This document shows, in pieces, positions 18,811 through 59,664 of a stretch of 64,000 nt of DNA. The DNA is from a virus. Its lineage: Duplodnaviria > Heunggongvirae > Uroviricota > Caudoviricetes > Herelleviridae. The notes beneath the pieces are model-generated. The model saw nothing but the letters and a program-made list of their open reading frames with translations, did not search any database and was not told the DNA's origin. Location of the stretch: positions 1-64,000 of the IMG/VR virus record IMGVR_UViG_3300030514_000001; one strand, 5' to 3'. Position numbers and translations under genes: made by a program. How positions within the stretch are numbered: position 1 is the stretch's first letter; each line of letters begins with the position of its first letter.

Positions 18811-18839
18811 TTGTTTACTAGTAGAGTTTGTGATATAAT
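18811..18839 (+). promoter_or_regulatory. sigma-A-type promoter (TTGTTT-17-TATAAT) for the DNA polymerase
   Basis: Perfect -10 with a 17-bp spacer after a terminator. Confidence 0.55.
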
Positions 18840-18861
18840 AGAAAGAGAAGGAGGAGATAGG

Positions 18862-21312
18862 TTGAAGATATTATTCGCACAGGAATACCTAAGGGAAAAC
18901 CACATGAAGAAGATGGAAGATGGAAGTCTTAAAAATGTGTTTCTCTCTACTAGAGGCGGTAAGTTATTAAAAAATCTTATTACAGATGGGTTAGAACTAA
19001 CAAACAAAGATTTTTATATTGATTACGCCTACTACGAAGTACCACAAGTTATTGGTAGGGATAAGAGTGGACGAGCCGTGAAGTATAAGCAGCCCGCCCA
19101 GAAAGACGCGAATCCATTGCATGAAGAGTTTAGAGCGCGTATCGTAAAAGAAAGACCAGACATTATCGTTCCTTCTGGTAATCTAGGTTGTAAAGCTCTT
19201 TTGGGAAAAGCATCTATTTCTACGATGCGGGGGGTTCCGCAAAAAGTAAGGATTGTACATAAGACAACTAAGACAGCAGATGCTCCAGACAACATTGTAG
19301 AAGAGTACAGACTATCAAAGGTTTTAAGAGATTTAGAAAACGATTTAAAAATAGCTATGCGAAAACTTGAAAATATCGATAACGGTATTGTCGGTGTCCG
19401 TGACCCGTATCATGAGTTAGTATTACGATATCCGCAAGTTCAACAAGAACGAGATGACGCAGCAGCTATCGTTGAAGGTCTAGAAATAGAAATAGCTGGA
19501 CTGAGACAGTCAGGTATAACACCAGACTTCGAATTACCTACTACTGAGATAGAAGAGAGCCATACTTGTTGGGTTCTACCGATGTACTCAATGGAGTATA
19601 TGCTAGTAAATCCGAAAATTCAGAATTTAGTAGAAGCAGATTTTGGTACACTTAAGAAATTCGTAGACGAAGGTGAAGATGCATTCGTAGCTAAGAAAGT
19701 TAAATACGAAGATGTAACTACTATCGAACGTGTACGAGAGATATTTACGAAGATTGTAAAAGAAGCTCCAGTAGTCGCATGGGATTTAGAGACAAACACT
19801 TTAAGCCCAGAACGAATAGGTGCAAAACCGCTAGTAATCTCTTTATCTTGGAAGGAAGGTACAGGTGCTACAATTCCACTGGAACACAAGGATTTTATGT
19901 GGCTCCCGGGACATCTAGCGGAGATTTATAAATACATAGAAGAGTTTGTAGGCGACGAAAATATAGTAAAGGTCGCGCATAATGGGAAATATGACCAAAA
20001 GTTCTTGAGGTTAACTAGAAATATTACACGATTCAAGAACCATCGAGATACAAAGACAATGTACTACTTACTTGTCAATCAGGATGTTAAAGGGTCATTA
20101 CGATTATCAGACCTAACATATGAATTTACAGATATGGGTGGATATGATAAAGCGTTAGAAGATTACAAGAAACAATACATAGAGGATTATAAAGCGAAAG
20201 AAAAAGCTCGTATCGACCAAGAGAAACTTGATTGGAAGTTAAAATGCGATGCAGAGCGAGAGCAAGCTAGTAACAAGATTAAAGAAATGAAAGCGGATAT
20301 CAATGCTGCAATCAAGGAGTTACGTTCTGAGCTAAAGGTTGTTAATAAGACAATCAAGAAGCTAGAGAAAGATGGACAGCCTCTTACAGAGTTCTTAGCA
20401 GGTAGACCGGAGTACTTAACAAACAGGATTGAAGAGCTTAAACAACAGCGTGATAGGCAAGCGCAAGAGTGGAAGTATGAGAAACCACCTACACCTAAAT
20501 GGGACGAAGTAAAAGCTCCTGTTAACGAGATAGATGGCGGAGACTTCAACTATGAATGGATTCCTTTATGGGAAATGCTTTCTCCATATGCTTCTGGTGA
20601 CGTTGATGTGTGTTTACGTATCTACAACCAATTAGCAGAGAGATGTACGAAGAAAGGTCTTAAGAAGATTGAAGACCTCTATAAAGGGCATTATCCGGAG
20701 CTTGTGAACGTTCTAGCTAAGATTGAGGCTACAGGTATCAAAACGGATATTCCGTACATCAAGAGCCTTGTAGAAGCTTATACGAAGGAAGAAAACAGAC
20801 TTATCGCTCTTATGCGTAAGTTCCCAGAGATTAAGCAACTAGAACAAGAAAAAGAAGAACTATATCGTATGGGGCTAGAAGAGAAGATGAAGCCTGTTAA
20901 ATTCCGTGATACGGAGATAGCGAAGTTACGTGACAAGTATAAGGATGAAGAGGATAGAAGGTTTAATCCGAACTCATCCGATGATAAGCAAAAAGTCATG
21001 TTCAAGTACACAGGTATTAAACTTCCATTCAACCGTGAGCATCTAGTGGATTCTGCTGTAGAGAACAATCTAGAAGAACATGAAATTGAGTGGTACCATT
21101 ACAAGTCTAACTCTGCGAATATGAAGTTCATAGCGAAAAACTACCCAGAGATGAAAGAACTAGCAGAGCTACTAGTAGAGTTCTCATTAGTTAAGACTCG
21201 TAAACAGAACTTCACATACAAGTTCTTAAGTATGGTAGACCATAATGATATCCTGCATGGCTCATTCAACAGTGAAGGTACAGAGACAAGCCGTTTATCA
21301 TCAGCGAACCCT
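18862..21312 (+). CDS. DNA polymerase, family A with 3'-5' exonuclease (exon 1)
   Basis: TTG start after AAGGAGGAG; Exo I VVAWDLETNTL, Exo II HNGKYDQKF, Exo III YASGDVDV; ends in ...ETSRLSSANP just before the intron; the 3' boundary is approximate. Confidence 0.75.
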
Positions 21313-22225
21313 AAAGTCATGTTGGGGTTCTAAAATCCTGTGAATTGACTGGAAACCCCTTAGAGCCTTACACACTCCTTTACACGGTGACGTAGTAAAT
21401 ATAGTAAAAGAGGTAAGGATTGGGCAATCAGCAGCCAAGCTACTTAGGGATAAGTAGAAGGTTCAACGACTAACGCATACGGGCTAGACCAGCCTATGAA
21501 GCGACACGAGCGCAGGAGAATCTAGTAATGTGGTGTTACTAGGAGGTAAAAATGTTTAAAGAAGAATGGAAACCGATAGAAGGTTTCGAAGGTAGATATG
21601 AAATTAGTAACAAAGGTAGGGTGTGGAGTAATCTACGTGGTAAAGAGCTAAGTCAGTGGAAAATCAACAGCGGGTATATGTCCGTTAGGCTCTTTATTGA
21701 TGGCAAACAGAAGAGTAAAACAGTACATAGGCTAGTAGCTAAAGCATTTTGTAGCGGTTATCGAGAAGGTCTAGAAGTGAATCACAAAGACACAGATAGG
21801 ACGAATAACAATTTCGACAACCTAGAGTGGGTTACTAGACTAGAAAATATCCGCGATATCGTAGAACGAGGTACTTTAAATACGCATACCGCAAGAGAAA
21901 AACTGGCTGCCGTATCTAGAAAGAAAGTAGATATGTATACAAAAGATGGTTCAGAATACATACGAACATACAATTCTATCAAAGAAGCTTGTGAAGAAAC
22001 CGGAGCGCAACAAGCGCATATATCTCGTGTCTGTCACGGTAAGCGACAAAGTGCCGGAGGTTATCACTGGAAATTTAACGATTCTGTAGATAAGAACAGA
22101 AGCGTATCAACTAAATGGAAAAAATAAAACAAACACCACATTACTGATTCAAGATATAGTCTATTCTTATATGAAAGTGTAAGAAGTAGTATTTAAAAGG
22201 TACTACGATAATATAAAAAAACATG
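21313..22225 (+). mobile_element. group I self-splicing intron interrupting the DNA polymerase gene (carries a homing endonuclease ORF)
   Basis: Pol reading frame stops shortly after the conserved ...SSANP; the downstream in-frame ORF resumes with QNMPRK (conserved PolA 'QNIP' motif); exon 1 ends in U and the intron ends in G; the 5' part is GC-rich and structured; an HNH ORF lies inside. Boundaries +/- a few nt. Confidence 0.6.
21552..22127 (+). CDS. intron-encoded HNH homing endonuclease (I-HmuI-like)
   Basis: N-terminal EWKPIEGFEGRYEISNKGRVWS, HNH core VNHKDTDRTNNNFDNLEWVT, C-terminal helix-turn-helix; strong RBS AGGAGGTAAAA. Confidence 0.8.
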   Translation: MFKEEWKPIEGFEGRYEISNKGRVWSNLRGKELSQWKINSGYMSVRLFIDGKQKSKTVHRLVAKAFCSGYREGLEVNHKDTDRTNNNFDNLEWVTRLENIRDIVERGTLNTHTAREKLAAVSRKKVDMYTKDGSEYIRTYNSIKEACEETGAQQAHISRVCHGKRQSAGGYHWKFNDSVDKNRSVSTKWKK

Positions 22226-23212
22226 CAAAATATGCCTCGTAAATCCGGGGACGTATATCGATTCGACTATAAACATCCAATCAAGCGTATGTTCATTTCA
22301 AGATTCGAAGGTGGAGCATTAATCCAGCTCGATTATAGCTCGTTAGAGTCTCGTGTAATGGCTTTAGACGCAATGGATATGGATATGATTAAATCGTTCT
22401 TCGATGGCGAGGATATCCACAGACAGACAGCAGCCTTAACGTTCCGTAAGCCACCGGAGGACGTTACAGACGATGAACGTACAAAAGCAAAAGCCGTATC
22501 GTTCGGTCTAGCGTATGGTGAGGTTCCGTTCTCATTCGCACCTAAACATAATATGACTGTAGAGGAAGCAGAAAAACTATTCGAAGACTTCTTCGCTGGG
22601 AAGCCGCGATTGAAAGAGTACATAGAAGAGAATAAAGAAATCGCAATGAAAGCTGGTAGTATCTCATGTCTACAAGGATACACTCGTAATCTACGAGATG
22701 TGTATTCCCAAGATAAGCAGAAACGTAACGGCGCATTACGTCAGGCTACCAACACACGTATACAGGGTTCTGGTGCATTCTTAACGAACAACTCATTAAT
22801 CTACATCAATAACCTAATTGAGAAAATGAACTTACGTTCTCGTATTGTACTAACAGTACACGATAGTATTGTAATCGATTGTCCACCAGAAGAGATTAAG
22901 TTAATGGCTCACATTGGTAAAACAGTCATGGAGAACTTACCTATCGATTGGTTGTGGATTGACTGGGAAGGGGAAAGAAGAAGATTCCCTATCACGGCTG
23001 ATGTCGAGATTGGTGTTACATACAATGATATGGTAGATTACAATCCAGACGATTTAGACACATTCGCGTCTGTAGCAGGTTACTGTAAATACCACGGAGA
23101 CTTAAAGAACGTTAAGAACTATAAGAACTCTAAGGCGATTACAGAAGAGAAGTACGATGAACTAGTAGCAGTAATTAAGTCAAATAAACCGCAATACCAA
23201 AAAATAGCTTAA
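22226..23212 (+). CDS. DNA polymerase, family A (exon 2)
   Basis: Starts QNMPRK...; contains motif C VHDSIVIDCP; no independent RBS. Confidence 0.75.
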   Translation, partial: QNMPRKSGDVYRFDYKHPIKRMFISRFEGGALIQLDYSSLESRVMALDAMDMDMIKSFFDGEDIHRQTAALTFRKPPEDVTDDERTKAKAVSFGLAYGEVPFSFAPKHNMTVEEAEKLFEDFFAGKPRLKEYIEENKEIAMKAGSISCLQGYTRNLRDVYSQDKQKRNGALRQATNTRIQGSGAFLTNNSLIYINNLIEKMNLRSRIVLTVHDSIVIDCPPEEIKLMAHIGKTVMENLPIDWLWIDWEGERRRFPITADVEIGVTYNDMVDYNPDDLDTFASVAGYCKYHGDLKNVKNYKNSKAITEEKYDELVAVIKSNKPQYQKIA

Positions 23213-49907: not shown

Positions 49908-50624
49908 TTGTTACAATTTATAGGACGCGGAAGCGCATTTAACACATTAGAAGGTAACAACAGCGCATATTGCATTCACGAAGGAGAACTATTCCTGATT
50001 GACTGCGGTAGCAACGTATTCGAACGATTAGACCATGCAGGTGTTCTAGGAGTCGTAAAGAATATTAAAGTACTAATCACACATACTCACGATGACCATA
50101 TCGGTTCATTAGGAGGACTCATCTTCCACTCATACTTCAATATGGGTACAATGGGAGAGAAGAATATTACGGTATACGCACCGTACACACTTAAGGTTCC
50201 TAAGATTCTAGATTTAATGGGAGTAACCAGCAAGTATTATCATATTAAACAGTTCGAATCACATATCGAATTAGAGTACGCAAATGACCCTGTATTTGTA
50301 CAAGCTGTACCTAATCATCACGTAGAAGAATTACTATCTTATGGGTACTTACTAGACATTAAAGGTAAGTGCGTATACTACAGTGGAGACTCGAACAATA
50401 TCCATCCATACATATTAGGACGATTAGAAAGTGGAATAATCGATTACTTTTATCAAGACACATGCAAAGCTGATTATGAAGGTAATGTACACTTATCCAT
50501 AAATAAGTTGTGTGAACTAGTAGGAAAGAATCGAGATAAGGTTTACTGCATGCACTTAGATAAAGGATTCCCGGTACAGTGGGTGAAAACATTAGGGTTT
50601 AATGTGGTAGAATCAGTTTTCTAG
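49908..50624 (+). CDS. metallo-beta-lactamase-fold hydrolase
   Basis: ITHTHDDHIGSLG (HxHxDH) motif; TTG after TAAGGAGGAC. Confidence 0.6.
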   Translation: MLQFIGRGSAFNTLEGNNSAYCIHEGELFLIDCGSNVFERLDHAGVLGVVKNIKVLITHTHDDHIGSLGGLIFHSYFNMGTMGEKNITVYAPYTLKVPKILDLMGVTSKYYHIKQFESHIELEYANDPVFVQAVPNHHVEELLSYGYLLDIKGKCVYYSGDSNNIHPYILGRLESGIIDYFYQDTCKADYEGNVHLSINKLCELVGKNRDKVYCMHLDKGFPVQWVKTLGFNVVESVF

Positions 50625-52887: not shown

Positions 52888-53979
52888 ATGACAAAGAAAT
52901 GGCAAGGAACTAGCGTAGGTTTATCTGTAGGTGCAGTAGATGATGGGTTCGGAGATGTAAAATGTGACAACAACGGTCATCCATTCTTAATTCCTTCATT
53001 CGTAACAAACTTTAAAGAGAAACCATCTACAGAGTTTGTAGTAGAAGGTAAGCAGTTAGAATACATCGCTTGTGAAATTGATGGTAAGAAATATGTAGTC
53101 GGAGATTATGCTACAAAGTTAGACCCGGATATTGAATGGACTGGAGGAGAAAATAAACATAATGATAATAAGTTTCCGATTATTATGAAAACTGTTTTAG
53201 GTCTTATGAGCAAGGGTACAAATGAAACCATCTACACACTTATGATGAACTTACCAATTAAGAACGATACACCAGAACGTAGAGAACAACTTACACAACT
53301 TGTAAAAGGTACACATGAGATGAAAATCTCATACGACGGTATCAACTGGATAGAAAGAACAGTCACAGTTGAAGATGTATGTATCAAGAAACAACCGTTC
53401 GGCTCTTTATGTGACCTAATGCTAGACAACAACGGAGAAATCGTTGACCATAACATTGCAAAAGGATTTAACGTATTAGCGGATATTGGAGCAAGAACTT
53501 TGAATGTTCTGACATTGGATTCATTAGAAGAACAACCGGAGCTAACGACTCATACGAACATGGGTATGTTTAGTAGCTACCTACAAATCGGTAAGTACTT
53601 AGAGAATCAACTAGGAGCTACGATTCCAGATGGAAAGTTACCAATGATTATCAAGAATAAAGAAATAAAAGGTATGGACATCACACCAGTCATCAATCAA
53701 GCTTATGAAAATCATGCGAATACCATCCTTAATACACTGGACAGAATACTTATTAATAGCTGGGCTTTTGTAGATACAATCATCTTTACTGGTGGAGGCT
53801 CTGAACTACTCAAACAATACTTATCAGAAAGATTCGCTAACAGAGGAGTTAAGGTGTTGTTCCTAGATAGATACGCAAATGTGCGCGGTTTAAGGAAGTA
53901 CGGGGCACGTATGGCATCGAAAGCGAAGAAGAGTACAGTTACTATTAAAGTCGGCACACAGCCGTATATTAGTAAATGA
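52888..53979 (+). CDS. actin-like ATPase (ParM/StbA/Alp-type)
   Basis: Phosphate-1-like LSVGAVDDGFGDVK, phosphate-2-like ADIGARTLNV, adenosine motif IIFTGGGSELL; 363 aa; RBS AAAGGGGGAAAAC. Confidence 0.6.
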   Translation: MTKKWQGTSVGLSVGAVDDGFGDVKCDNNGHPFLIPSFVTNFKEKPSTEFVVEGKQLEYIACEIDGKKYVVGDYATKLDPDIEWTGGENKHNDNKFPIIMKTVLGLMSKGTNETIYTLMMNLPIKNDTPERREQLTQLVKGTHEMKISYDGINWIERTVTVEDVCIKKQPFGSLCDLMLDNNGEIVDHNIAKGFNVLADIGARTLNVLTLDSLEEQPELTTHTNMGMFSSYLQIGKYLENQLGATIPDGKLPMIIKNKEIKGMDITPVINQAYENHANTILNTLDRILINSWAFVDTIIFTGGGSELLKQYLSERFANRGVKVLFLDRYANVRGLRKYGARMASKAKKSTVTIKVGTQPYISK

Positions 53980-53989
53980 GGTGACTTAA

Positions 53990-54256
53990 ATGCGAAAGTC
54001 AGTCTACCTTCGAGATAAGATGGATGATGACATACTAGAAGTCATTAAGCCATTACTAAAGAACCATAGCTTTGCACATGTAATGAGGGAACTAGCTAGA
54101 GATGGAATCAAGTATAGAAAAGGGGAAGGAGGTGTCGTGTATCCTAAAGTCATACAAAGTGTGACACCTGTAGAATCGGCTCCAATACAAGATGTAAAAT
54201 TAGTCAAAAAAGAAGCATCTGACAAGGATATCGAAAGCAGATTAGATAGTTTCTAA
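53990..54256 (+). CDS. small putative DNA-binding protein (ribbon-helix-helix-like; ParR-like adaptor candidate)
   Basis: N-terminal KSVYLRDKMDDDILEVI beta-strand/helix pattern; 88 aa directly downstream of the actin-like gene. Confidence 0.4.
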   Translation: MRKSVYLRDKMDDDILEVIKPLLKNHSFAHVMRELARDGIKYRKGEGGVVYPKVIQSVTPVESAPIQDVKLVKKEASDKDIESRLDSF

Positions 54257-54261
54257 CAAAA

Positions 54262-54298
54262 CAAAAAGCACATCAGACGACATGCTTCCAAGTTTTAT
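54262..54298. terminator. bidirectional terminator between convergent genes
   Basis: Imperfect palindrome AAGCACAT...ATGTGCTT flanked by T-tracts on both strands; contains the stop codon of the minus-strand HNH gene. Confidence 0.5.
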
Positions 54299-55006
54299 AA
54301 TTTACAATCTGAGATATGTTCTTTCTTACCACATTAAACATATCACCTAATTGTTGATGGGTGTATTGACCTGTACTATGTAATCTTCTGATTTCTCTAA
54401 CTTTATCTTCTGTAAGTTTAGCTGCGTTGGAAGATGTAGGCTGTTTAGAGATAACTGGCTCGTCAACTAAATTAAGATGTTTCCATGTCCTTCCTTTAAT
54501 CACAGCGTCCACCGTACTATCCGTAACATCAAACTGAGCGCTTATTTGTGCTACAGAGAATCTACCTGATTTATACATTTCGACTATCTTATGTACTTTG
54601 TCTTCACTTAACTTACGATTGTGACTCGATTCACCTAAACCCACACTAAGCAACCCGGTATTTACTGCATGTTGTGTGTTTTCCGAAGGTGTGACCCACT
54701 CTAAGTTTGATAGTTCGAAGTTCCGCTTATTACCGTCCTTATGGTTTATGTGCGGCTTATTTAAAGGGTTAGGGATAAAGACGATTGCTAGTAATCTGTG
54801 TAAGAGATAACTTTTAGACACTTTGTTGTGTGTTAGTGTCACTTTAGGATATCTCTTGTCGCTTTAGGATATCTCTTGTCGCTTACGGGGTTTGAAACGC
54901 TAATCATTTTACCTTTACTAATATTCTTAACCTTACCTGTGTTACTTATTTCGTAGTTGTCTCCACATTCAACGACACCCTCTAACGGTTTCCATACTTC
55001 TGTCAT
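54273..55006 (-). pseudogene. free-standing HNH homing endonuclease (NUMOD-like N-terminus + HNH core + HTH), frame-disrupted by a 20-bp tandem duplication
   Basis: Minus strand: ATG at 55006 with GAGGGA RBS encodes MTEVWKPLEGVVECGDNYEISNTGKV...; that frame stops inside the duplicated 20-mer. Removing one copy joins it in-frame to the HNH body (ORF 54273-54842: HKDGNKRNF...NLEWVT). Confidence 0.65.
54842..54881. repeat. perfect 20-bp tandem duplication (CTTTAGGATATCTCTTGTCG x2) inside the HNH endonuclease gene
   Basis: Two identical adjacent 20-mers read directly from the sequence. Confidence 0.9.
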
Positions 55007-55082
55007 AATATTGATTCCCTCTTTCTTATGGTATATCTCTATTATAACATACTTCGAAAATAAATCGGGGGAGGCTACTTTT

Positions 55083-55196
55083 GAAATTCCCTTGCGAGAA
55101 AAACAGAAATGTTCGGGAAAAACAAAACGTTGATTTAACGCTATTTTCCCGATATTAGATAGGGAAAAACGTTAATTCCCTGCGTAATTCCCGCAT
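55083..55196. promoter_or_regulatory. cluster of GGGAAAAAC / AATTCCC direct and inverted repeats in a non-coding region (candidate operator / recognition locus)
   Basis: CGGGAAAAAC (55113), inverted TTTTCCCG (55145), GGGAAAAACGTTAATTCCC partial palindrome (55162), AATTCCCTTGCG / AATTCCCTGCG / AATTCCCGCA repeats; six GGGAA/TTCCC cores in about 110 bp with no ORF. Confidence 0.45.
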
Positions 55197-57305: not shown

Positions 57306-57419
57306 ATGAGTATCACAACACTGATTTTACTGAATACAACGATGTTATTGGCGACTGCTGCTGTGAATGCTGTGCAATGTGTAATCATTATGAAGGAGTT
57401 GAAGCATCGTGAAGAGTAA
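57306..57419 (+). CDS. small hydrophobic peptide
   Basis: 37 aa, RBS TAAGGAGAGG; not in the track. Confidence 0.3.
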   Translation: MSITTLILLNTTMLLATAAVNAVQCVIIMKELKHREE

Positions 57420-59664
57420 AGGATACAAGAACATATCGAACTACTTCTCGCAGATTGAGGATGTATCAGGAGCCTTTAAAACCATCTTAGAACAAGAGAC
57501 AGACGGTGTATTCGGTATAGAGCTGGAGATGTATAAAGGAGGGCGTAATATTACAGTGGTTACGCCCCCACATATCCGTTTTAATGAAACGAACGTTCTA
57601 CCTTATCGTTTAACGTTAGTAGCGCGTCATACAGACGACTTACATGCTTATGAAGGTTATCTATCTAAACCCTCGTTCTTACCGTTGTACGAGGGCATGA
57701 GAGGCTTATTATTACGTGAATTACTGGAGATACAAGTAGGAGAGGATGAAGCACTAGAAATCCAGTGGCTATTCAAGAGATATGTAGATAATTGGCTCCT
57801 AACTTCTATAGAAAGGTATAAGAGTTACTTGAGTGGGAATGAATACCCTGCTGGTTCTAAAATAGGAAGAACATTTCAAGATAAAATCCTTCACGCTATC
57901 AATAAGTTATCATCATTTGATATGGCTCGAACATATAGTGAGAAAGTGGAACAGAAGATTGTTGGTAAAGTGTATAAATTCAAACTAGGAATCACCATTC
58001 GTTCTAAGGAACCTACGGCGCTCGTACAGCAGATTGAAACTATACTACGTAAATACGATTCGCATAATACGGTAAGCTTGTACAAGAGGAAGTTAAAGGG
58101 CTTAAAAGATGAATGTGAGGAAAGACTAGTTATGAACGGGGAGAATGTACTGAGTGATACAGAGATTGTATCCTTATTCGGTGGAACAGTAGTAGCTCCC
58201 CAAGAAGTTGAACACGCTCAATCTGTTACTACTGCACCGAATAAAGTTAGAACACCTAGAAAGGATATCGGAGGTCTAGTCTCGTTGTTGCCTACATATC
58301 CAAGAGAAGAAGTGAAAGTGGATGAAAATATTGTGAGCTACCTAGCCGAAGCCATGAAGCGTGTAGGTCTGATTCCAACAGCGAGACTAGCGAATAGTAC
58401 TGTCACAGCGGGTGCGCGGTTGACTGTTATTCAATGTGATATACCTAAGAAGAAGAACTTAAGTCATCTTATTTCAAAGGCTTCCGATATCCAAGCAGCA
58501 CTAGGAGTCCCTTCTCTTAGTATAGAACAAGGTGAGGAACCTGATACTGCCAAATTTACCCTACCAAACGAAGAAGCAGCCGTTATCAGCCTTAGAGAGC
58601 TTATAGAGAGTCCAGACTTCCAAGAGTACGCGAGTAATCATGCGTTACCATTTATAGTAGGTGTTGATGAAGTAGATACACCAATCTATCTAGACTTGAC
58701 AAAGCTCGTACATCTTATGATTGCAGGTACAACGGGTTCTGGTAAATCTGTATTTATGAATACACTAATCATTTGTCTCATGGCTACGAACTCACCAGAG
58801 ATGTTACGGTTTGTCATGATTGACCCTAAAATAGTAGAACTGGCTCAATACGAAGGGATGGCGCACGTAGATAAGATTGTAACGGATATGGAGAAAGCAG
58901 GGGAAGCACTCAATAAGCTAGTAGAAGAAATGGAGAAGCGATATGAAACGTTTAAGGATGCAGGAGTTAAAAATATAAAGGTCTACAATGAAGTAGCAGA
59001 CTGTAAAATGCCTTATATCGTATGTGTGATTGATGAATACGCAGACCTACATGATACAAACCCACATGTAGAAGAGTATGTCACACGACTAGGACAGAAA
59101 GCCCGTGCTGCTGGAATCCATTTAGTTATCGCTACACAAAGACCGGATGCAAAGGTAATCAGTGGACGTATCAAAGCAAATGTGCAGAATGCAATCAGTT
59201 TCAATTTAAACAGTAATGTAGATTATAAAACAGTATTCGGTAAAGGTATAGGAAATACGACTCTGCTGGGTCGTGGAGATGGTGTCATGAGAATAGTAGC
59301 TCACCCTAAAGAGTTCCAGAGATTCCAGAGCGCTATTGTATCTCCTAATGAAGTGGAAGAAGGTAAAGTGTATCAAAAGATTAGGGATTACTTTGGTGGA
59401 GAGTTAGTCGAAGAGGAGATAGAAGAAACAGAAGAAGTTGATACAGAGGAACCGTTAGTGAAGCTTAAAAAGATTATCGCTCGTACTAGGGAGACGAAGG
59501 TAGGTAGGCTTAGAGAACTCATGGGAATCAAAGCAGAAGTATTAACAGACCTCATGGGTAAGTTAGTGGAAGAAGGTTGGCTCATCAAACACGCTTCTAA
59601 GACAAAAGGATATGAGCTAATCATTCCAGAAGAGATGTTAAACGAATATAAAGGTGATTGGTAA
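57409..59664 (+). CDS. FtsK/SpoIIIE-family DNA translocase-like ATPase (soluble N-domain + motor + gamma-like wHTH)
   Basis: Walker A MIAGTTGSGKS, Walker B VCVIDEYADL, RAAGIHLVIATQRPD motif, C-terminal ETKVGRLRELMGIKAEVLTDLMGKLVEEGWL winged-helix; no TM in the 751 aa. Confidence 0.8.
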   Translation: MKSKGYKNISNYFSQIEDVSGAFKTILEQETDGVFGIELEMYKGGRNITVVTPPHIRFNETNVLPYRLTLVARHTDDLHAYEGYLSKPSFLPLYEGMRGLLLRELLEIQVGEDEALEIQWLFKRYVDNWLLTSIERYKSYLSGNEYPAGSKIGRTFQDKILHAINKLSSFDMARTYSEKVEQKIVGKVYKFKLGITIRSKEPTALVQQIETILRKYDSHNTVSLYKRKLKGLKDECEERLVMNGENVLSDTEIVSLFGGTVVAPQEVEHAQSVTTAPNKVRTPRKDIGGLVSLLPTYPREEVKVDENIVSYLAEAMKRVGLIPTARLANSTVTAGARLTVIQCDIPKKKNLSHLISKASDIQAALGVPSLSIEQGEEPDTAKFTLPNEEAAVISLRELIESPDFQEYASNHALPFIVGVDEVDTPIYLDLTKLVHLMIAGTTGSGKSVFMNTLIICLMATNSPEMLRFVMIDPKIVELAQYEGMAHVDKIVTDMEKAGEALNKLVEEMEKRYETFKDAGVKNIKVYNEVADCKMPYIVCVIDEYADLHDTNPHVEEYVTRLGQKARAAGIHLVIATQRPDAKVISGRIKANVQNAISFNLNSNVDYKTVFGKGIGNTTLLGRGDGVMRIVAHPKEFQRFQSAIVSPNEVEEGKVYQKIRDYFGGELVEEEIEETEEVDTEEPLVKLKKIIARTRETKVGRLRELMGIKAEVLTDLMGKLVEEGWLIKHASKTKGYELIIPEEMLNEYKGDW

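What the first reader, a model, noticed from the sequence alone, without database searches (positions are those of the whole stretch)
54273..55006. Free-standing HNH homing endonuclease gene inactivated by a perfect 20-bp tandem duplication
On the minus strand an ATG at 55006, preceded by a GAGGGA RBS, opens a NUMOD-like homing-endonuclease N-terminus (MTEVWKPLEGVVECGDNYEISNTGKV...). That frame stops inside the second copy of a perfect 20-bp direct repeat (CTTTAGGATATCTCTTGTCG x2, 54842-54881). Removing one copy reconstitutes a single 237-aa ORF that continues straight into the HNH/HTH body called at 54273-54842. So the gene is a recent pseudogene, a microhomology-mediated duplication, or an assembly artefact. 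The downstream fragment has its own Met and might still be expressed as a truncated DNA-binding and nicking protein.
Basis: seen in the sequence. Interest (0 to 1): 0.6.

Follow-up and report, generated by a model that had tools for sequence, protein, structure and literature searches.

The report
Homing endonuclease gene broken by duplication
A selfish "homing" nuclease gene in a Bacillus phage has been knocked out of frame by an exact 20-base head-to-tail duplication; the duplication is real, but this is the ordinary decay expected for such mobile genes.

Summary
CTTTAGGATATCTCTTGTCG occurs twice in perfect tandem at 54842-54881 and is followed by a 3-nt microhomology (CTT). About 3e-7 such repeats are expected by chance in this window.

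On the minus strand the repeat splits one gene into two ORFs. The first is a 55-aa NUMOD4 ORF (55006-54839). The second is a 189-aa HNH_3 + two-HTH ORF (54842-54273). Deleting one copy gives a 237-aa protein that aligns collinearly with 20 homologues and with I-HmuI (PDB 1U3E).

The window is a Bequatrovirus (Bacillus phage B4 group). The gene sits in a ~905-bp cassette (54257-55161). B4, B5S, Spock, Flapjack and SWEP1 lack the cassette. vB_BcgM and two metagenomic phages carry intact orthologues at the same site. This is a free-standing homing endonuclease gene.

The two-copy allele is identical in at least seven fetched loci from JGI, ENA and Logan assemblies, so an assembler error is unlikely. 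All of them appear to be one phage lineage. No one-copy allele was found anywhere.

The downstream ORF starts at GTG with almost no Shine-Dalgarno pairing (-3.0 vs -13.6 kcal/mol). Nothing supports programmed frameshifting.

Verdict: a recent, single-lesion pseudogene of a known kind of mobile gene. Low interest.

The parts
54257..55161 (-). Homing endonuclease gene (HEG) cassette: about 905 bp present here and absent from the empty site of phages B4 and SWEP1, where about 39 bp stand instead.
   Evidence: blastn of the window against B4 (L002) and SWEP1 (L003): homology stops at 54255/54256 and resumes at 55162. The flanks are 92-98% identical.
54273..55006 (-). Disrupted free-standing HNH homing endonuclease gene, 734 nt as it stands. 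With one repeat copy removed it is 714 nt and 237 aa: NUMOD4 (3-51), HNH_3 (61-104), HTH (about 124-165) and a second HTH (about 190-231).
   Evidence: AlphaFold2 model with pLDDT 89. The only significant PDB fold match is I-HmuI 1u3e.
54842..54881 (.). Perfect tandem duplication, 2 x 20 bp (CTTTAGGATATCTCTTGTCG on the + strand). This is the frameshifting lesion (+20 nt, downstream part moved to the -1 frame).
54882..54884 (.). 3-nt microhomology (CTT on +, AAG on -) that repeats the first 3 nt of the unit. Likely slippage anchor.
   Evidence: The identical run at period 20 is 23 nt. Sequence read.
54839..55006 (-). ORF-A: 55-aa N-terminal fragment. Residues 1-48 are native NUMOD4 sequence; the last 7 (ATRDILK) are out-of-frame repeat sequence. 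The stop is TGA at 54841-54839.
   Evidence: NUMOD4 32.4 bits against a cut-off of 23.4.
54273..54842 (-). ORF-B: 189-aa C-terminal fragment (beta-hairpin + HNH beta-beta-alpha + two HTH). It opens at GTG 54842, the native Val49 codon, and overlaps the ORF-A stop as GTGA.
   Evidence: Anti-SD pairing is only -3.0 kcal/mol.
55016..55021 (-). Shine-Dalgarno sequence GAGGGA (within AAGAAAGAGGGAA) of the native start codon.
   Evidence: Duplex with the 16S 3' end is -13.6 kcal/mol. Conserved as AAGAAAGAAGG in the three same-site orthologues.
55041..55049 (-). Extended -10 promoter-like box TGTTATAAT. The -35 is poor.
   Evidence: Read. The same box (TGTTATAAT, TGCTATAAT, TGGTATAAT) sits at the same distance in vB_BcgM, L008 and L010. 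The simple sigma-70 scan did not call it because the -35 is weak, so its function is inferred.
54264..54289 (-). Terminator-like hairpin with a T-run, overlapping the HEG stop codon.
   Evidence: 11 pairs, loop 4, T-rich tail. A similar sequence is present in vB_BcgM.

Best explanation
The locus is a free-standing I-HmuI-type HNH homing endonuclease gene (N-terminal NUMOD4 beta-strands, HNH beta-beta-alpha nuclease, two C-terminal helix-turn-helix DNA-binding modules). It lies in an intergenic site of a Bequatrovirus (Bacillus phage B4 group) genome.

In this phage lineage a replication-slippage event between two AAG triplets 20 nt apart duplicated 20 bp inside codons 42-49. This shifts everything downstream into the -1 frame. 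Translation from the native ATG therefore ends after 55 residues. The nuclease and DNA-binding parts are left without an efficient start.

The gene is most likely a null or near-null pseudogene. This is the 'degeneration' step of the invasion, fixation, decay and loss cycle of homing endonuclease genes.

Shown here: the duplication, the frame consequences, the family assignment, the presence/absence polymorphism of the cassette, the intact same-site orthologues, and reproducibility across assemblies.

Inferred: the slippage mechanism, the loss of activity, and that the event is recent (only one lesion; all conserved residues retained).
For: - Perfect 2 x 20 bp repeat plus 3-nt microhomology; chance expectation 3.4e-7.
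- The one-copy reconstruction gives 237 aa with NUMOD4 30.9, HNH_3 34.1 and HTH_7 30.2 bits, all above the Pfam cut-offs.
- It aligns without a gap at the junction with 20 homologues. All 17 invariant columns are retained, including Y46, H63, N81, H82 and N103.
- phmmer hit to I-HmuI 1u3e, E 5.6e-13, collinear over residues 5-120. The AlphaFold2 model has pLDDT 89, and 1u3e is the only significant PDB fold match, E 2.3e-7.
- The cassette is absent from B4, B5S, Spock, Flapjack and SWEP1, with flanks 92-98% identical.
- Intact orthologues sit at exactly this site in vB_BcgM (187 aa), L008 (187 aa) and L009/L010. All read Y-P-K/R-V across the junction in single copy.
- The two-copy allele is present in seven fetched loci. 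L005, L006, L007 and L011 are 100% identical to the window. L012 differs only by 3 N positions and 1 mismatch about 100 nt from its contig end.
- The GTG of the downstream ORF has -3.0 kcal/mol anti-SD pairing, against -8 to -14 for 7 of 8 neighbouring gene starts.
Against: - No reads were available, so a minority one-copy subpopulation cannot be excluded.
- All assemblies seem to be the same phage stock or lineage. The only differences over 15 kb are Ns and one contig-end mismatch. Reproducibility therefore speaks against assembler error but says nothing about how long the allele has persisted.
- No one-copy allele of this particular gene exists in any collection searched. The ancestral state is inferred from orthologues that are only 46-50% identical.
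- The GTGA stop/start overlap and an A_AAG_UGA context leave room for a little reinitiation or -1 slippage. 'Null' is therefore not proven.
Confidence: 0.85

Rival explanations
1. Assembly or sequencing artefact: the phage DNA really carries one 20-mer and the second copy was created in silico.
For: Only consensus sequences were available and no reads were seen. All assemblies may derive from one phage stock.
Against: The same two-copy sequence appears in assemblies from three pipelines and several runs or samples: JGI 3300003850 and 3300003846 with three more not shown, ENA ERZ781244 (SPAdes node, k-mer coverage 5583), and Logan SRR4141180 and SRR4142418.

From general knowledge of de Bruijn graph assemblers: they collapse repeats rather than invent them, and k-mers that span the copy-copy junction can only come from reads that contain it.
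Confidence: 0.03
2. Leaky or recoded gene: some active enzyme is still made. One route is -1 slippage of tRNA-Lys on A_AAG just before the UGA, which would give a full-length protein with a 7-aa ATRDILK insertion. Another is termination-reinitiation at the GTGA overlap, giving the 189-aa fragment, possibly complemented in trans by the 55-aa NUMOD4 peptide.
For: - The only window for a frame change is the second repeat copy. It ends in C_CUA_AAG_UGA, and the required shift is -1.
- -1 shifting at CGA_AAG is documented for Bacillus subtilis cdd (Mejlhede et al. 1999, as cited in PMC5009743).
- The stop and start overlap as GTGA.
- Native promoter-like and SD signals upstream are intact.
Against: - There is no X_XXY_YYZ heptamer.
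- There is no significant downstream structure: MFE -8.8 kcal/mol, z = -1.07, with the hairpin starting 1 nt after the site.
- There is no SD-like stimulator upstream, and the GTG has -3.0 kcal/mol SD pairing.
- No relative has a split or frameshifted arrangement, so nothing is conserved.
- A shifted product would move the family-invariant Y46 seven residues away from strand 48-53.
- The 189-aa fragment lacks four N-terminal strands.
Confidence: 0.07
3. Heterogeneous or reversible allele: the tandem duplication comes and goes by slippage, so the phage population carries both ON (one-copy) and OFF (two-copy) forms. This would act as an unstable switch for a potentially costly nuclease. It is compatible with the main explanation.
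For: From general knowledge, perfect short tandem duplications revert precisely at comparatively high rates. The JGI consensus L012 carries N at three positions elsewhere in the genome, which hints at some population polymorphism.
Against: Every consensus shows two copies. The exact one-copy protein is absent from a 15-billion-protein collection, and junction pattern scans of three contig collections found nothing. There is no evidence of selection for switching.
Confidence: 0.05

Closest known systems
I-HmuI (phage SPO1) and I-BasI (phage Bastille), HNH nicking homing endonucleases; structure PDB 1U3E
   Same: Same domain order: N-terminal beta-strands (NUMOD4), HNH beta-beta-alpha, C-terminal HTH. 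Sequence match E 5.6e-13. It is the only significant PDB fold match. Both come from Bacillus myophages of Herelleviridae. These enzymes nick one strand of a roughly 24-bp site (PMC3017599).
   Different: [quoted passage not shown] This gene is free-standing in intergenic DNA, carries two HTH modules instead of one, is only about 26% identical over the structural alignment, and is frameshifted. The window does hold a separate intron-borne I-HmuI-like ORF in its polymerase gene, at 21552-22127.
Putative HNH endonuclease of Bacillus phage vB_BcgM (UNA01616.1, OM743306) and the unnamed orthologues P0003 and P0004
   Same: Exactly the same insertion site, between the 88-aa gene next to the ParM/Alp7A-like gene and the 53-aa gene. 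Same orientation and the same upstream TG-n-TATAAT box and SD. 46-50% amino-acid identity. The last ~150 nt are 86% identical, in one alignment block with the flank.
   Different: Those genes are intact, are 171-187 aa long and have one HTH module. The gene here has an extra internal HTH module (237 aa when repaired) and the 20-bp duplication.
Homing endonuclease gene life cycle (invasion, fixation, degeneration, loss; Goddard and Burt 1999, cited from my own knowledge)
   Same: The cassette is polymorphic among sister genomes (empty, intact and broken sites all observed), as that model predicts.
   Different: Nothing conceptually different. This is one more example. The lesion is a tandem duplication rather than the more usual point frameshift or deletion.
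-1 ribosomal frameshifting at CGA_AAG in Bacillus subtilis cdd (Mejlhede et al. 1999, cited in PMC5009743)
   Same: An A_AAG lysine codon context in a Bacillus-type translation system, with a -1 shift needed.
   Different: The cdd shift depends on an upstream SD-like stimulator. None is present here, there is no significant downstream structure, and there is no conservation. This is a resemblance only.

Membership tests
I-HmuI-like HNH homing endonuclease (NUMOD4 + HNH_3) | N-terminal NUMOD4 motif | tested here: met
   30.9 bits (reconstruction) and 32.4 bits (55-aa ORF) against the Pfam cut-off of 23.4.
I-HmuI-like HNH homing endonuclease (NUMOD4 + HNH_3) | HNH_3 beta-beta-alpha nuclease motif with the conserved His and Asn residues | tested here: met
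   34.1 bits against a cut-off of 24.8. H63, N81, H82, N94 and N103 lie in columns invariant across 21 sequences. Collinear with I-HmuI residues 3-113.
I-HmuI-like HNH homing endonuclease (NUMOD4 + HNH_3) | C-terminal helix-turn-helix DNA-binding module | tested here: met
   HTH_7 30.2 bits against a cut-off of 23.8 at residues 124-159. A second three-helix module at 193-228 appears in the model.
I-HmuI-like HNH homing endonuclease (NUMOD4 + HNH_3) | Fold like the solved I-HmuI structure | tested here: met
   AlphaFold2 pLDDT 89. Foldseek top hit is 1u3e_M, E 2.3e-7, probability 1.00; the next hit has E 0.04.
I-HmuI-like HNH homing endonuclease (NUMOD4 + HNH_3) | Uninterrupted reading frame | tested here: not met
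   The 20-bp duplication splits the gene into 55-aa and 189-aa ORFs. The locus is therefore a pseudogene of this family, not a functional member.
I-HmuI-like HNH homing endonuclease (NUMOD4 + HNH_3) | Site-specific nicking or cleavage and homing into empty alleles | not testable with these tools
   Needs biochemistry and phage crosses.
Free-standing (non-intron, non-intein) mobile HEG | Intergenic cassette with its own expression signals, present or absent at a fixed site among close relatives | tested here: met
   Empty site in B4, B5S, Spock, Flapjack and SWEP1. Occupied site in vB_BcgM, L008 and L009/L010. No Rfam intron at this locus. Conserved SD and TG-n-TATAAT box.
Microhomology-mediated tandem duplication (slippage product) | Perfect head-to-tail copies bounded by a short direct repeat present once in the ancestral sequence | tested here: met
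   2 x 20 bp plus a 3-nt CTT/AAG. The microhomology is short, at 3 nt. The orthologues carry a single copy.
Programmed -1 ribosomal frameshift site | Slippery X_XXY_YYZ heptamer in the overlap | tested here: not met
   The overlap reads GCG ACA AGA GAT ATC CTA AAG TGA. Only an A_AAG tetranucleotide is present.
Programmed -1 ribosomal frameshift site | Stimulatory downstream structure or upstream SD-like element | tested here: not met
   Downstream fold -8.8 kcal/mol, z = -1.07. The best anti-SD pairing upstream is -3.0 kcal/mol.
Programmed -1 ribosomal frameshift site | Two-frame arrangement conserved in relatives | tested here: not met
   All 20 homologues and the three same-site orthologues are single ORFs.

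The most novel reading that the evidence does not exclude
The perfect 20-bp duplication may not be a dead end. It could be an unstable, precisely revertible OFF state of a selfish nuclease, or one leaking a little enzyme through -1 slippage at A_AAG_UGA or GTGA reinitiation. The phage lineage would then keep the homing endonuclease silent, avoiding self-nicking or cost. It could regain the enzyme by one-step slippage when an empty-site competitor phage is met.
Probability: 0.06. Interest if true: 0.4.

Novelty: new member of a known kind. Interest (0 to 1): 0.15.

Why it matters
The practical value is mostly for annotation. The 55-aa 'NUMOD4' and 189-aa 'HNH' gene calls that several public pipelines make here are two halves of one broken gene and should be annotated as a single pseudogene.

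The locus also gives a clean, datable snapshot of the homing endonuclease life cycle within one phage genus. Empty, intact and freshly broken versions of the same site are all on record. Because the lesion is a single, perfectly revertible event, the repaired 237-aa protein could be synthesised directly to find the target site in B4-type phages.

It does not open a new biological question.

Tried and rejected
1. Search for an intact (one-copy) allele. Nothing was found by any route:
   - megablast and blastn against 50,697 phage records;
   - tblastn, best hit 50% identity;
   - the 5.8-billion-cluster protein search, next best 46-48% identity;
   - exact 31-nt junction scans of viral, genome and metagenome contig collections, 0 hits each;
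   - exact look-up of the 237-aa reconstruction, not in the collection.
2. Programmed frameshift. No heptamer, no significant structure and no conservation. Rejected as a designed feature and kept only as possible low-level leak.
3. Independent expression of the 189-aa fragment. The GTG start has -3.0 kcal/mol SD pairing, so this is judged unlikely apart from weak coupling.
4. Intron or intein context at this locus. No Rfam hit at gathering score anywhere in the window, and the cassette lies between genes. Rejected.
5. Independence of the assemblies. P0121 looked like a variant allele, but it differs only in how the GTG start is translated (V vs M). The JGI loci differ from the window only by Ns and one contig-end mismatch. 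All records are therefore one lineage and give no evidence of long persistence.
6. Literature search for the run accessions, to learn the sample origin: 0 papers.
7. Short repeats in the upstream intergenic DNA: only weak 9-16-nt matches, not pursued.

Full report
THE OBSERVATION

Read on the minus strand, 54881-54842 is CGACAAGAGATATCCTAAAG twice in perfect tandem. The 20-mer occurs nowhere else in the window on either strand. At period 20 the run of identical positions is 23 nt. The unit is therefore followed by a repeat of its first 3 nt: CTT at 54882-54884 on the + strand, AAG on the - strand.

Tandem Repeats Finder scores the array 89, the highest in the window; the next best is 59. With this base composition, 3.4e-7 perfect 20-nt tandem duplications are expected in 64 kb. 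In 100 shuffles only 8-9-nt periods ever duplicated. The repeat is real and not a chance match.

CONSEQUENCES FOR THE READING FRAMES

The ATG at 55006 follows AAGAAAGAGGGAA. Its duplex with the Bacillus 16S rRNA 3' end is -13.6 kcal/mol. It opens a 55-aa ORF that ends at the TGA at 54841-54839.

A 189-aa ORF then runs from the GTG at 54842 to 54273 in the -1 frame. Its GTG overlaps the stop as GTGA. Deleting either copy yields a 714-nt, 237-aa ORF.

WHAT THE GENE IS

- Domains. The repaired protein passes the Pfam cut-offs for NUMOD4 (3-51), HNH_3 (61-104) and HTH_7 (124-159). It has a second HTH-like module near the C-terminus.
- Split products. The 55-aa ORF alone passes NUMOD4. The 189-aa ORF alone passes HNH_3 and HTH_7.
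- Solved structures. phmmer against solved structures finds the nicking homing endonuclease I-HmuI (1u3e) at E 5.6e-13, collinear over residues 5-120 and therefore straight across the junction.
- Predicted structure. An AlphaFold2 model built on 21 aligned sequences has mean pLDDT 89. Its only significant PDB fold match is again 1u3e, at E 2.3e-7.
- Alignment. It reads SDKRYPKVTLTHNK against SRKYYPKVTLHYKG and SKKNYPKVTLSHKG. It keeps all 17 invariant residues, including Y46 beside the junction and the HNH residues H63, N81, H82 and N103.

The duplication is therefore the only visible lesion.

GENOMIC CONTEXT

The window belongs to a Bequatrovirus (Herelleviridae, Bastillevirinae; Bacillus cereus-group myophages such as B4). 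The flanks are 92-98% identical to B4, B5S, Spock, Flapjack and SWEP1.

Those five phages lack the gene. Homology stops at 54255/54256, the end of an 88-aa gene beside the ParM/Alp7A-like gene. It resumes at 55162, so a ~905-bp cassette (54257-55161) replaces about 39 bp of the empty site.

Exactly the same site is occupied by intact orthologues of 46-50% identity:
- Bacillus phage vB_BcgM, 187 aa;
- the Logan contig L008, 187 aa;
- L009/L010, two ~155-161-kb contigs.

All three read Y-P-K/R-V once across the junction. All share the SD and a TG-n-TATAAT box upstream. A terminator-like hairpin overlaps the stop codon. No intron signal is found at this locus.

Together these are the hallmarks of a free-standing, mobile homing endonuclease gene. 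Here it is caught in three states within one genus: empty, intact and broken.

IS IT AN ARTEFACT?

The split gene is called as 55 aa plus 189 aa in assemblies from three pipelines:
- ENA ERZ781244 (SPAdes node of 161,131 bp, k-mer coverage 5583);
- Logan SRR4141180 and SRR4142418;
- five JGI contigs, including samples 3300003850 and 3300003846.

All seven fetched loci contain both 20-mers. Different assemblers and runs agree, and junction-spanning k-mers cannot arise from single-copy DNA. An in-silico artefact is therefore unlikely.

These records are, however, essentially one genome. L005, L006, L007 and L011 are 100% identical to the window. L012 differs only by three Ns and one contig-end mismatch. 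The apparent protein variant P0121 differs only in V versus M at the GTG start. They show reproducibility, not evolutionary persistence.

No one-copy allele of this gene exists in any collection searched.

CAN ANYTHING STILL BE MADE?

- The GTG of the 189-aa ORF pairs with the anti-SD at only -3.0 kcal/mol. Seven of eight neighbouring gene starts pair at -8 to -14. Independent initiation is improbable in a Bacillus host, though GTGA coupling could allow a trickle.
- The fragment would lack the four N-terminal strands (5-7, 18-21, 26-28, 33-35) of the model.
- A -1 shift is what would restore the frame. It would have to occur inside the second copy, which ends in C_CUA_AAG_UGA.
- -1 shifting at CGA_AAG is known in Bacillus subtilis cdd (cited in PMC5009743). 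Here there is no heptamer, no SD-like stimulator and no significant downstream structure (z = -1.07). There is also no conservation in relatives.
- The shifted product would carry a 7-aa insertion that displaces the invariant Y46.

I treat leakiness as possible but minor.

MECHANISM AND VERDICT

The most likely history has four steps:
1. An I-HmuI-type free-standing homing endonuclease gene invaded this intergenic site.
2. Its middle part is mosaic relative to the same-site orthologues. There is 86% nucleotide identity at the 3' end and 79% at the 5' end, but 67% in the middle, plus an extra HTH module.
3. Later, replication slippage between two AAG triplets 20 nt apart duplicated 20 bp.
4. 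That frameshift knocked the gene out.

One lesion with every conserved residue intact argues for a recent event. This is the ordinary degeneration phase of homing endonuclease genes. The finding is of low novelty: a new, broken member of a well-known kind.

Noticed in passing
window 18811-23212 (+): A family-A DNA polymerase gene is split into two ORFs (18811-21333 and 22223-23212). The ~890-bp insert between them carries an intact 191-aa I-HmuI-like HNH ORF (21552-22127, 37% identical to the repaired HEG). Rfam Intron_gpI gives sub-threshold hits on both sides of the ORF: 21336-21517 at 42.3 bits and E 3.7e-9, and 22151-22181. This matches the known group I intron with I-HmuI/I-BasI in the SPO1 and Bastille polymerase genes (PMC3017599). 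The full-window Rfam gathering scan missed it.
   Followed up: partly
window 55085-55192: Six of the window's 36 GGGAAWW sites, on both strands, cluster in 108 bp of intergenic DNA between the HEG start and the 53-aa gene. The cluster straddles the right edge (55162) of the HEG cassette. The empty site of phage B4 has TAATTCCC four times in the equivalent place. This could be a protein-binding array or part of the homing site; it remains unexplained.
   Followed up: partly
window 54273-55006 vs L001, L004, L008, L010: The HEG is mosaic. Its last ~150 nt are 86% identical to the vB_BcgM orthologue, within a single alignment that also covers the flank. The 5' end and promoter are 79% identical and the middle 67%. 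It carries an extra internal HTH module (237 vs 187 aa). That module resembles the one in HEGs at other sites, such as Chotacabras gp217, which sits one gene away between ParM and the 88-aa gene. This suggests module shuffling among HEGs of this phage group.
   Followed up: partly
window about 49908-50624 (+) (L011 14219-14935): A 238-aa metallo-beta-lactamase-fold protein carries a precomputed Pfam hit to Anti-Pycsar_Apyc1, a phage enzyme family annotated as degrading cyclic-nucleotide defence signals. Not examined further.
   Followed up: no
window 52888-53979 (+) and about 57409-59664 (+): The HEG neighbourhood contains an ALP_N/Alp7A-like actin-type partition protein (363 aa). The same protein is annotated as 'ParM' in some records, as 'Ig-like domain containing protein' in B4, and wrongly as 'HNH homing endonuclease' in SWEP1. 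A 751-aa FtsK/SpoIIIE-family ATPase lies nearby, after several membrane proteins. The annotation of the ParM-like gene is inconsistent between records.
   Followed up: no
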